A DNA stretch of 63,469 bases from Monosiga brevicollis MX1 (Eukaryota): NCBI RefSeq assembly GCF_000002865.3, contig NW_001865089.1, forward strand, positions 20,684 to 84,152, written 5' to 3'. Positions 313 through 2,736 of the stretch are shown here, in pieces (the first letter of the stretch is position 1; the number at the start of each line of letters is the position of its first letter). Position numbers and translations under genes: made by a program. The notes below the pieces were generated by a model that saw only the letters and a list, made by a program, of their open reading frames with translations, did not search any database and was not told where the DNA came from.

Positions 313-2736
313 ATGCCTAGGATGGCGAGCAGTGGCAGTGCAGACGAGCGATCCGGCGCCGCTTCGCGCCCAGCTAGAGCAACGGAAAAACCGAGCAAGG
401 CTGGAGACAAACTGAGCAAGGCTGAAGACAAGCTTAAAAATGCTGAAGCCAGGCTGGACATCGCTGAAGCCAAGCTGGACAGCGCTGAGGAACGTGCCCA
501 GGCGTCCATGGCCACGGAAGAGCAAGCCAATGCCGAAGTGAACGTGGCCAAAGCCGAATTGGGCGTGGCCAAGGCCAAAGTGAAGGTGGCCGAAGCCAAA
601 CTGGGCGTGGCTGAAGCTAAAGTGGAAGCGGCTACAAATGATGGAGACCGAGCCCGAGCCGAATCAAGTGTGGCCAAAGCCGAAGTGAACGTGGCCAAAG
701 CCGAAGTGAACGTGGCCAAAGCCGAAGTGAACGTGGCCAAATTCGAATTGGGCGTGGCCAAAGCCAAAGTGGAAGCGGCTACAAATGACAAAGACCGAGC
801 CCGAGCCGAATCAAGTGTGGCCAAAGCCGAAGTGAACGTGGCCGATGCCAAAGTGAACGTGGCCAAAGCCGAAGTGAGCGTGGCCGATGCCAAAGTGAAC
901 GAGGCCAAATTCGAATTGGGCGTGGCCAAAGCCAAAGTGGAAGCGGCTACAAATGATGGAGACCGAGCCCAAGCCGAGGCGGGCGTGGCTGATGCCGAAC
1001 TGAACGTTGCCGATGCCAAAGTGAACGTGGCCGATGCCAAAGTGAACGTGGCCAAAGCCGAAGTGAACTTGGTCATCTCGCGTCCACATTCCGCAGAGCT
1101 GAGCCGTGTCTTTGAATCGTACTTGCAGACCTTGAAAGACGAAGTAGTCCGTGCTTCCCAGGCGCGGAATAACGCTGCAAGCAAAACGAACTCACCCATG
1201 GCGGCTGCAGTGAGCCCTCGCCCCCAGCAATCCTCTGGCGTGTTGGTGGTGCCAGCAAGTGCGGTCGTGTCCGGGGCTTCAGGGGACGGGTATCTAGACT
1301 ATTACAATCAAGTGACCCGGAAGGGTCGATACAAAACAGCCGACGAGTCAGAGGTGGCCCCGTTCCGTTCGGAGCTCACGTCGGAGCAGGAAACCATGGC
1401 CGACAGCATTCCAAAGGGCCAGCGCACTTTGGAAGCAGATCTCCAAAAAGCCTGGGTTGACTTTCTCCAGAAGCAGACAAAGAATATCCCATGTCGCGTT
1501 TGTAGCTCTCCCGATGTTGCAACTCTGGACCAGTACAAGCCCGACATTGTGTTGGGGGCAAGAGACCCTTACAGGGATGGCAACATTGCCTGCATTTTGG
1601 AGCTCAAGCGCAGCACGAAGAAGTTTGCAGCTTCGGCTCTTGGCCAACTCTTTTCTTATTTAGATAAATTGTTGGAGCTGTCTCCAGATCGACACTTCTG
1701 CTTTGGCGCGTTGGTGAACTGTTTCAACTTCCACATCATCCGGGCATATCGATGCGGAACCGGCTTCATTCACTTCGAGACCATAATACAGGGCCATTTG
1801 GGGTCGGGCGCGCCCCTTGTCCGACTGCTGACCATGGAACCTAGTGAGCTTGGTTTCGTGGACTTGCGCGTGAACATTCCTGACAACGATGGGCAGCCAT
1901 TGTATTACCAACCATACTGCTTTCTCGGCGAGGGCAGGCACTGCAAGGCGTACAAAGGCTACTTTCATGACAAGCCGGCCGTCTTCAAGATTTTCAAGAA
2001 CGAAGCCGCCATGAAGCAGGAGCGTGACATGCTTAACAAGCTGGGTTCCGCTAAGGTTGAAAATGTGCCTGTCCTCAAGGGTTACTCGAAAGGGCACCCC
2101 TACTGCTGCGTCGTGACCCCTGTAGGCGAGGAATTTGCCACGCCTCCCACAAGACACGAGCTATCAATGCTTTTGGACGTGCTCAAGGCCGCGCACAAGG
2201 CCGGGCTTGTTCATCGTGACCCGCTTCCCCGCAACTATTTTCGAGTGGGTTCAAAAATCCTGTTCAACGACTGGGGGTCGGCTGAAGAGATTCGCACAGG
2301 CCAGCCAGTTGTACCCACTGGCTGGCCTTGTGAGCAAGCAGATGACATGATTGGCGAGGTTCGTACCGCTTGCTGCAGTGAATGTGGGAAGAATTGCAGT
2401 GTGCAAGCCCCCTCATGTTCGACTGGTTGTGGTTTGCAGAGTGAGGTGGTGCCCCAGTTCCGACATGACCTGGAAATGTTTGCAAAGGGCATCTTCTTGC
2501 GAATGGTGCGAAAGGGCGACTGGCCAAATGACCTGCGTAGCACTGATTTTTGGGATGAGGGTTACTTGAGATCTACCTGGCGACCTGTCTTGAACGCTGC
2601 TCGCTCGCTACCCGATTTCCTTACCGGCTCACCCGAAGATTTTGTGAAAAACCACGATGGGACATACGAGGGCTTCAGAAACATACTTTTGAAGTCCTAT
2701 AGTCGCCTGCTCGCTCATGGGCCCACTTTGTTTTGA
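313..2736 (+). CDS. Intronless coiled-coil + PD-(D/E)XK nuclease + protein kinase-like protein (Crinkler/RHS-effector-like architecture)
   Basis: One open frame from ATG 313 (or 322). AEVNVAK heptad repeats; REase-fold motifs E..KPDIV..ILELK..QLFSY; kinase motifs LGEGRHCKAY, VFK, HRDPLPRN, NDWG. Confidence 0.8.
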   Translation: MPRMASSGSADERSGAASRPARATEKPSKAGDKLSKAEDKLKNAEARLDIAEAKLDSAEERAQASMATEEQANAEVNVAKAELGVAKAKVKVAEAKLGVAEAKVEAATNDGDRARAESSVAKAEVNVAKAEVNVAKAEVNVAKFELGVAKAKVEAATNDKDRARAESSVAKAEVNVADAKVNVAKAEVSVADAKVNEAKFELGVAKAKVEAATNDGDRAQAEAGVADAELNVADAKVNVADAKVNVAKAEVNLVISRPHSAELSRVFESYLQTLKDEVVRASQARNNAASKTNSPMAAAVSPRPQQSSGVLVVPASAVVSGASGDGYLDYYNQVTRKGRYKTADESEVAPFRSELTSEQETMADSIPKGQRTLEADLQKAWVDFLQKQTKNIPCRVCSSPDVATLDQYKPDIVLGARDPYRDGNIACILELKRSTKKFAASALGQLFSYLDKLLELSPDRHFCFGALVNCFNFHIIRAYRCGTGFIHFETIIQGHLGSGAPLVRLLTMEPSELGFVDLRVNIPDNDGQPLYYQPYCFLGEGRHCKAYKGYFHDKPAVFKIFKNEAAMKQERDMLNKLGSAKVENVPVLKGYSKGHPYCCVVTPVGEEFATPPTRHELSMLLDVLKAAHKAGLVHRDPLPRNYFRVGSKILFNDWGSAEEIRTGQPVVPTGWPCEQADDMIGEVRTACCSECGKNCSVQAPSCSTGCGLQSEVVPQFRHDLEMFAKGIFLRMVRKGDWPNDLRSTDFWDEGYLRSTWRPVLNAARSLPDFLTGSPEDFVKNHDGTYEGFRNILLKSYSRLLAHGPTLF
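532..1068 (+). repeat. Coding 21-bp tandem repeat with higher-order 147/168-bp units
   Basis: Unit GCCGAAGTGAACGTGGCCAAA (AEVNVAK). Block AAAGTGGAAGCGGCTACAAATGA recurs at 619, 766 and 934. Confidence 0.9.

What the first reader, a model, noticed from the sequence alone, without database searches (positions are those of the whole stretch)
313..2736. Intronless nuclease-kinase gene with Crinkler/RHS-effector-like architecture
Seen: one ORF with a coiled coil, a complete restriction-endonuclease-fold motif set (KPD at 1537-1545, ELK at 1600-1608, QLFSY from 1645) and a kinase keeping the Gly-rich loop, Lys, HRD..N and DWG. Known: tandem PD-(D/E)XK + kinase is a hallmark of eukaryotic Crinkler/RHS-type conflict effectors and FunK1-like kinases, linked to mobile elements. 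Inference: a toxin or defence effector, or a domesticated mobile gene, in a probably free-living holozoan, with a coiled coil in place of the usual header domain.
Basis: partly seen in the sequence, partly recalled or inferred. Interest (0 to 1): 0.78.

Follow-up and report, generated by a model that had tools for sequence, protein, structure and literature searches.

The report
Choanoflagellate Crinkler-type nuclease-kinase gene family

Summary
The domains are real; "intronless" is wrong. The ORF equals Monosiga brevicollis MONBRDRAFT_30448 except for 27 residues. An RNA-like run splices those 81 nt out (GT..AG, 2359-2439) and joins position 321 to an exon outside the window, so ATG 313 lies in an intron and the N-terminus is unresolved (one run). 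The middle domain models as a restriction-endonuclease fold (pLDDT 94; Z 11.0 to BpuSI) with the catalytic residues present; the C-terminal domain is a protein-kinase fold. The pair occurs in scattered eukaryotes behind Crinkler, SAM or other N-termini: the published Crinkler-RHS "REase + kinase" type, already reported from free-living eukaryotes. Six Monosiga gene models form one clade; close copies differ mostly at amino-acid-changing sites (19 vs 2 codons; partial data, p about 0.07). No signal peptide, transposase or telomere repeat was seen. Best reading: an intracellular, kinase-gated nuclease of genetic conflict. Extras: a slippage-built heptad array, and an intron that may be a former cysteine-rich exon. 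This scan noted the same architecture before in another genome (e1-2593166). New member of a known kind.

The parts
1..320 (+). 3' part of an intron (starts in a GT microsatellite at the window edge; pyrimidine tract and AG acceptor at 319-320). The upstream exon (at least 191 nt) lies outside the window.
   Evidence: tables 2, 7, 8 (run X1: no depth at 100-301, loose end before 320); (a 13-mer of the loose end is not in the window)
321..2358 (+). Main coding exon; ATG 322 is the start of the database model MONBRDRAFT_30448 (P0003)
397..1077 (+). Heptad-repeat helical array (P0003 residues 26-252): five predicted helices; the last four (38, 45, 52, 40 residues) are separated by ATND turns; built from a 21-nt unit; repeat number differs among paralogues
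1093..1278 (+). Sixth predicted helix (residues 258-290) and disordered linker (291-319, pLDDT under 50)
1282..1851 (+). PD-(D/E)XK restriction-endonuclease-fold domain (Pfam DUF6826): E371 (1432), P407-D408 (1540-1545), E427-x-K429 (1600-1608), Q442 (1645), R457 (1690)
1870..2733 (+). Protein-kinase-fold domain (interrupted by the 81-nt intron): GxG 1927-1935, K556, E567, HRDPLPRN, DWG, alphaF D689
2359..2439 (+). 81-nt in-frame, stop-free GT..AG intron; read through, it gives a 27-residue peptide with six cysteines that resembles an insert in paralogue P0006
2440..2805 (+). Last exon: coding to the stop at 2734-2736, RNA-like contig reaches 2805
   Evidence: table 8
2900..3690 (.). Four diverged tandem units of about 190 bp (64% column identity), non-coding, no Rfam match; three DNA-like or untyped runs hold a form that lacks about one unit
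   Evidence: (loose ends at 3009)

Best explanation
This is an intact, spliced Monosiga brevicollis gene of the Crinkler-RHS 'REase + kinase' type whose product is predicted to be a non-secreted, metal-dependent nuclease, likely held in check and switched by its own kinase, and likely used in intracellular conflict (against invading DNA, or to kill the infected cell). Shown: gene structure, transcription of this copy and of a P0002-type copy in one RNA-like run, both folds (as models), complete catalytic motifs, a six-member species-specific clade, and the same two-domain module behind interchangeable N-termini in other eukaryotes. From the literature (review of Zhang et al. 2016): in this architecture toxicity is attributed to the REase and regulation to the kinase. 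Inferred: D408, E427 and K429 (with E371 and Q442) bind Mg2+ and cut nucleic acid; the kinase phosphorylates itself or the REase and so gates cutting; the alanine/valine heptad array packs into an antiparallel helical bundle or sheet that oligomerises the protein or senses a trigger, taking the place of a globular header; copies arise by DNA-level duplication and diversify around the nuclease active site.
For: REase fold: model pLDDT 94.4, pTM 0.90; VIA Z 11.0, rmsd 3.4, 138 aligned to BpuSI and Z 10.4, rmsd 2.5, 126 aligned to DrdV; Foldseek best hit DrdV E 3.5e-4. Kinase fold: Foldseek E 3e-7 to 5e-6 for the listed rows, all protein kinases. Both catalytic sets are kept together in 78 of 102 aligned relatives; the REase triad in 90 of 102, the five kinase residues in 87 of 102. 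107 of 152 relatives span both domains; 73 of 102 match DUF6826. Named relatives come from a ciliate, diplonemids, a testate amoeba, another choanoflagellate and a mycorrhizal fungus, with a 14-member 90% cluster in Diplonema papillatum. Crinkler header PF20147 on 1 of 102 and on 9 of 77 relatives of that protein; SAM on 1 of 102. Six Monosiga models, one clade, SH-aLRT 99. No hydrophobic signal or membrane segment in four Monosiga models. In a related copy 19 codons change the residue and 2 do not, four of them directly after ExK, with catalytic residues unchanged among the listed sites. PMC5289972 section 11: REase+kinase is about one sixth of CR C-termini, CR proteins occur in free-living eukaryotes, some are proposed to target intracellular invasive DNA.
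Against: No activity, localisation, target or phenotype was measured. The relatives were picked by likeness to the query, so motif conservation is partly built in. The 19:2 count uses 23 of 37 differences of one contig and does not differ significantly from neutral drift (binomial p 0.07); it fits decay as well as positive selection. Three of the five paralogous models lack part of the module (P0005 and P0006 no REase, P0007 little kinase) and P0004 lacks the PD strand, which may be prediction errors or decay. No K[KR]x[KR] nuclear signal in P0003. The catalytic loop has Leu where canonical Ser/Thr kinases have Lys (HRDPLPRN; family mostly R or K), so kinase activity may be weak or of unusual specificity. 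The unread upstream exon could add a targeting segment. Zhang et al. 2016 itself could not be read.
Confidence: 0.55

Rival explanations
1. Selfish or transposon-borne gene: the nuclease-kinase spreads for its own sake, as cargo of a non-autonomous DNA element or as a Medea-like toxin, and the nuclease helps copying or kills cells that lose it.
For: Copies are dispersed over five scaffolds and share non-coding flanks: the P0005 model begins with a translation of this locus's upstream intron and other runs hold a form of the downstream 190-bp array with a unit fewer. Patchy distribution with species-specific bursts. CR genes are linked to transposons and helitrons (PMC5289972); a Crinkler-like gene spreads through flanking hAT/mariner elements in fish (PMC12957317); Medea1 is CR-like (PMC11342252).
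Against: No transposase or helicase among 11 other long ORFs scanned; the 25 longest inverted repeats in 1-5000 are all GT/CA microsatellites; few copies; the gene is spliced and transcribed; neighbours downstream are ordinary genes (sulfate transporter, HIRA-like). The left flank is missing, so element ends could not be sought.
Confidence: 0.2
2. Relaxed or domesticated kinase: the proteins act, if at all, as signalling kinases on a helical scaffold; the REase-like domain binds nucleic acid or is drifting.
For: Amino-acid-changing differences between close copies are no rarer than expected under neutrality; several paralogous models lack one domain; two kinase-only-looking models exist (P0005, P0006).
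Against: This copy, P0002 and the 36%-identical P0007 all keep E, PD, ExK and Q; the triad is kept in 90 of 102 relatives; DNA-like contigs show an REase region in further copies without frameshift in the listed gaps.
Confidence: 0.13
3. Exported toxin, like oomycete CRN8: delivered into prey, competitors or parasites, with the helical array or the unread first exon as the delivery part.
For: Same C-terminal architecture class as CRN8 (PMC5289972); relatives carry the Crinkler header; alanine-rich hairpin helices are common in membrane-spanning conduits (recalled).
Against: No Crinkler header match and no hydrophobic segment; choanoflagellates engulf prey and have no known delivery structure (recalled).
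Confidence: 0.1

Closest known systems
CR (Crinkler-RHS-type) effectors of the REase + protein kinase class (Zhang et al. 2016, known here only through PMC5289972); example Phytophthora infestans CRN8
   Same: REase-fold domain directly followed by a protein kinase; variable N-terminus; lineage-specific expansion; occurrence in free-living eukaryotes; direct sequence relatives carry the Crinkler header (P0044, E 4e-10 to the query; PF20147 E 2e-19).
   Different: No ubiquitin-like LxLFLAK header in the window; a 230-residue heptad array instead; no secretion evidence; similarity to CRN8 itself and the numbered CR-REase clade were not tested.
Pfam DUF6826 (PF20713) + kinase proteins of arbuscular mycorrhizal fungi
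   Same: Above the DUF6826 cut-off (31.6 vs 26.6 bits); same domain order; about 30% identity.
   Different: Different N-terminus; Monosiga members form their own clade.
FunK1 fungal kinases (Pfam Pkinase_fungal, PF17667)
   Same: Weak match over residues 421-588, spanning the REase end and kinase N-lobe (E 5.7e-4); 35 of 102 relatives match at E <= 0.001.
   Different: 19.1 bits, under the 24.1 cut-off; only profile positions 22-204 of 387 are matched.
Type IIG restriction endonucleases BpuSI and DrdV; NucC
   Same: Closest solved folds of the nuclease domain.
   Different: 12-14% identity; no methyltransferase or sensing pocket shown; a shared fold gives no substrate.
AACRNL (PMC12957317)
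   Same: Crinkler-like gene with a degenerate header in free-living eukaryotes, multi-copy, acting inside its own cell.
   Different: ADP-ribosyltransferase, not REase+kinase; flanked by hAT/mariner ends, which were not found here.

Membership tests
CR (Crinkler-RHS) REase+kinase effectors | PD-(D/E)XK restriction-endonuclease fold with catalytic residues | tested here: met
   (model and motif; activity not tested)
CR (Crinkler-RHS) REase+kinase effectors | Protein kinase domain directly C-terminal to the REase | tested here: met
CR (Crinkler-RHS) REase+kinase effectors | Sequence kinship of the module with proteins that bear a recognised CR header | tested here: met
   P0044 hit at E 4e-10 over both domains, carries PF20147; 9 of 77 of its relatives do too; SAM on P0053
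CR (Crinkler-RHS) REase+kinase effectors | N-terminal header domain (ubiquitin-like or alpha-helical) | tested here: inconclusive
   No Pfam header match; helical array present; upstream exon unread. The review says unrelated alpha-helical headers exist.
CR (Crinkler-RHS) REase+kinase effectors | Lineage-specific expansion with rapid divergence | tested here: met
   six models in one clade (quick tree); 19:2 codon count is only suggestive
CR (Crinkler-RHS) REase+kinase effectors | Match to a published numbered CR-REase / CR-kinase profile | not testable with these tools
   Zhang et al. 2016 not held; profiles not in the libraries
Canonical oomycete/fungal CRN effectors | LxLFLAK ubiquitin-like header (PF20147) | tested here: not met
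   no match for the protein encoded in the window at E <= 1; caveat: first exon unread
Canonical oomycete/fungal CRN effectors | Translocation into another cell, nuclear localisation, cell death | not testable with these tools
   needs experiments
FunK1 (Pkinase_fungal PF17667) | Score above Pfam gathering cut-off over the domain | tested here: not met
   19.1-19.3 bits vs 24.1
Autonomous DNA transposon / Helitron | Transposase or Rep-helicase gene, defined termini | tested here: inconclusive
   none among 12 ORFs scanned of 51 listed or in the inverted repeats shown; left flank lies outside the window; no genome
Subtelomeric (RHS-like) gene family | Location next to telomeric repeats | tested here: inconclusive
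   no (TTAGGG)2 in the window; both window ends are microsatellites; genome not available

The most novel reading that the evidence does not exclude
These genes are a choanoflagellate cell-autonomous immune effector: a suicide or anti-viral nuclease gated by its own kinase, in which a two-seamed heptad array that grows and shrinks by 21-nt slippage acts as sensor or assembly platform, and in which a former cysteine-rich (metal-binding) exon in the kinase has become an intron whose retention switches the enzyme. It would be a eukaryotic counterpart of bacterial kinase-nuclease abortive-infection systems in the sister group of animals, testable by gene editing.
Probability: 0.15. Interest if true: 0.75.

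Novelty: new member of a known kind. Interest (0 to 1): 0.35.

Why it matters
What Crinkler-type nuclease-kinases do in free-living eukaryotes is an open question (PMC5289972). M. brevicollis can be gene-edited and transfected and has a described immune cell-death response (PMC8592570, passages), so an intact, transcribed, low-copy member is a practical test case. The work also ties Pfam DUF6826 to a restriction-endonuclease fold with an intact active site, and corrects the gene structure (two introns; two paralogous database models retain the 81-nt segment). The architecture itself is not new.

Tried and rejected
No genome is held for this window, so paralogue number is a lower bound from protein searches and subtelomeric position is untested. 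No close relative in metagenome, viral or prokaryotic contigs by six exact peptide patterns (P0013 in viral contigs); these scans find close relatives only, and the family alignment was too diverse to search with. The upstream exon could therefore not be fetched. A second read-laying on other runs gave no result, so intron retention and the first exon were not checked in independent runs. The ESM atlas gave no answer. A crude coiled-coil test on relatives' N-termini did not discriminate (13 of 31 vs 8.2 in shuffles), so I make no count of coiled-coil headers. My first motif count used a wrong column for Q and was redone; one frame check was off by a base and one search is used instead. The profile search with the whole alignment returned only the four Monosiga proteins and one partial kinase hit (repeat words filled the candidate list). 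PADLOC and NCBIfam gave only generic coiled-coil or kinase matches. Rfam: one weak, low-complexity hit only. Viral fold search: best hits Pandoravirus DUF5898 and a haloviral PD-(D/E)XK nuclease (E 4e-4, 8e-4), not followed up. The careful tree did not finish; the quick tree leaves the position of the Hartaetosiga protein open. Literature: no paper with the five gene ids searched, none with Crinkler+REase+kinase+Monosiga, none with DUF6826; six gene numbers absent from the two supplementary files held for PMC8592570 (its expression tables are not among them). Zhang et al. 2016 and its supplements, which may already list these proteins, were not available. No complex prediction was run.

Full report
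Identity. The frame 313-2736 gives 807 residues. A search with its catalytic part found four proteins, all named Monosiga brevicollis MX1. P0003 (MONBRDRAFT_30448, XP_001750940.1) equals the frame from ATG 322 on, less 27 residues. The window is thus from this free-living choanoflagellate or a near-identical genome; no whole genome is held. Residue numbers below are those of P0003.

Gene structure: not intronless. Four runs were laid on 100-3100 (4 of 24 listed). X1 has a contig (depth 107.8) that skips 81 nt with GT..AG ends, 2359-2439, and its bin depths leave no room for cover inside the skipped part; contigs of X6, X2 and X14 go through. X1 has no cover of 100-301, and a contig whose first 191 letters lie outside the stretch and join at the AG at 319-320. 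A 13-mer of that loose end is not in the window, and both window ends are microsatellites, so the exon most likely lies beyond an assembly break. Read by hand from the 30 letters shown, the frame is open into ATG 322 and has another ATG nine codons earlier; whether the exon codes for more is unknown. Independent support for the 81-nt intron: the distance from the DWG Asp to the alphaF Asp is 39 residues spliced and 66 unspliced, and 38-46 in most of the 93 aligned rows that have both. Limits: one run, RNA by guess, contigs drop rare forms; a second laying gave no result. X1 also holds a second contig at 1483-1594 whose listed differences match P0002, so two copies appear transcribed.

Domains. 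Pfam gives DUF6826 above its cut-off and Pkinase_fungal below it. A search of 1.84 billion representatives gave 257 proteins at E <= 0.001, of which 150 were listed. Of 152 proteins then in hand, 107 span both domains; 102 were aligned (A2; P0039, P0043, P0055, P0087 and P0119 left out). Conservation (of 102): E371 80, D408 97, E/D427 99, K429 96, Q442 75, R457 101; K556 102, E567 94, H631 100, D633 101, N638 99, D650 97, D689 94. Both catalytic sets are complete in 78, the REase triad in 90, the kinase set in 87. These rows were selected by likeness to the query. The REase domain alone models at pLDDT 94.4; its best matches are BpuSI (Z 11.0, rmsd 3.4, 138 aligned) and DrdV (Z 10.4, rmsd 2.5, 126), followed by two mitoribosomal proteins (Z 9.6, 9.1), DUF820-type nucleases, NucC, HsdR and Hjc; Foldseek agrees. 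The full model (pLDDT 85.8) matches protein kinases. The catalytic loop reads HRDPLPRN, with Leu where the family mostly has Arg or Lys.

N-terminal array. 526-1072 is 26 copies of a 21-nt unit with a 147-168 nt higher-order period. The model has five helices (26-61, 66-105, 110-152, 156-208, 212-252); the last four segments are 38, 45, 52 and 40 residues, all in one heptad phase, and paralogues differ by whole heptads and helices. Heptad positions 0, 1, 3 and 5 are hydrophobic (V, A, A, V/L), which I read as two seams two residues apart, as in helical sheets rather than a two-stranded coil (inference; classification recalled). No segment is hydrophobic enough for a signal or membrane helix (max Kyte-Doolittle 1.26). 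P0007 has a longer array of similar make-up before the same REase.

Family. Six M. brevicollis models (P0002-P0007) lie on five scaffolds and form one clade among 105 rows (SH-aLRT 99, quick tree); this is a lower bound. P0004 lacks the PD strand, P0005 and P0006 lack the REase, P0007 most of the kinase, as modelled. Copies share flanks: the P0005 model starts with a translation of this locus's upstream intron, and X6, X2 and X14 hold a form of the downstream 190-bp array with about one unit fewer, which points to DNA-level duplication. P0002 differs from P0003 at 8 of 40 residues in 541-580 but 1 of 197 in 581-777, a mosaic that suggests gene conversion. For one contig of X14 (labelled organism B; several variants also in X6), 23 of 37 differences were shown: 19 codons change the residue, 2 do not; against 643:194 sites this is p 0.07, so no sign of purifying selection, but no proof of positive selection. 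The Diversispora protein has a Crinkler header, as do 9 of its 77 relatives; the Arcella protein has a SAM domain. So the module is constant and the N-terminus is swapped.

The 81-nt intron. Read through, it is stop-free with six in-frame cysteines, and the 50%-identical P0006 model has a C-x2-C-G-x2-C-S stretch at the same place. Shuffles: stop-free with six or more Cys 1.0% (dinucleotide shuffles); similarity to the P0006 insert reached by 794 of 20,000 composition shuffles and 156 of 20,000 shuffled-intron translations. These are post-hoc and modest; TG-rich introns give cysteines easily. It is a lead for an intronised or conditionally retained metal-binding loop, not a finding.

Context. 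Downstream lie a sulfate transporter, a HIRA-like gene, an aminopeptidase and other ordinary genes (12 of 51 ORFs scanned). No second copy, no telomere repeat, no terminal inverted repeat among those shown, no RNA family.

How it most likely works. Shown: structure of the gene, folds as models, intact motifs, family expansion. Inferred: a cytoplasmic or nuclear protein whose REase cuts nucleic acid with Mg2+, gated by the adjoining kinase, and assembled or triggered through the helical array; used against invasive DNA or to kill the cell (0.55). Rivals: selfish or transposon-borne gene (0.2), drifting or domesticated kinase (0.13), exported toxin (0.1).

Comparison with what is known. PMC5289972 (passages and section 11 read) reports from Zhang et al. 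2016 that REase+kinase makes up about one sixth of CR C-termini, that CR proteins occur in free-living eukaryotes, that headers include unrelated helical domains, that toxicity is ascribed to the REase and regulation to the kinase, and that CRN8 cell death depended on the REase region. Zhang et al. itself was not held (nothing read); it or its supplements may list these proteins. PMC12957317 (abstract, passages), PMC11342252 and PMC11064341 (passages), PMC8592570 (passages, two supplementary files searched) and PMC4054682 (passages, nothing relevant) were also seen. Searches found no paper naming these genes. It works like a CR REase+kinase protein and meets the tested features of that class; it is not a canonical LxLFLAK CRN and falls below the FunK1 cut-off.

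Verdict. Real, intact, transcribed; a new member of a known kind. Interest 0.35.

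Noticed in passing
window 2359-2439: In-frame stop-free intron that reads as a six-cysteine peptide resembling an insert in paralogue P0006; possible intronised or retained exon. Database models P0002 and P0004 keep it as coding.
   Followed up: partly
window 2900-3690: Four diverged ~190-bp non-coding units with a conserved core; part is covered by a contig of the RNA-like run X1 (2897-3082); other copies lack a unit; no Rfam match.
   Followed up: partly
window 58423-59754 (+): ORF with a SAM domain in front of a pentameric ligand-gated ion-channel ligand-binding domain and membrane helices, an unusual pairing.
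   Followed up: no
window 54415-55575 (+): ORF over a near-perfect 60-nt tandem repeat (54683-55079), Pfam Extensin-like.
   Followed up: no
window 1147-1227: A second 81-nt in-frame GT..AG stretch is absent from the P0002 model, but X1's contig runs through it here, so it is probably a prediction artefact or a deletion in that paralogue.
   Followed up: partly
P0148 cluster: Diplonema papillatum holds at least 14 near-identical REase+kinase proteins, some in pairs on one contig: a recent burst worth checking for a mobile element.
   Followed up: no
viral fold search: Pandoravirus DUF5898 proteins are the best viral structural matches of the nuclease domain; 1 of 102 relatives also matches DUF5898.
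   Followed up: no
window 5005-7245, 12026-13234, 27001-28053, 52190-53494: Ordinary neighbours: SLC26 sulfate transporter, HIRA-like WD40 (minus strand), M17 aminopeptidase, LRR protein.
   Followed up: no
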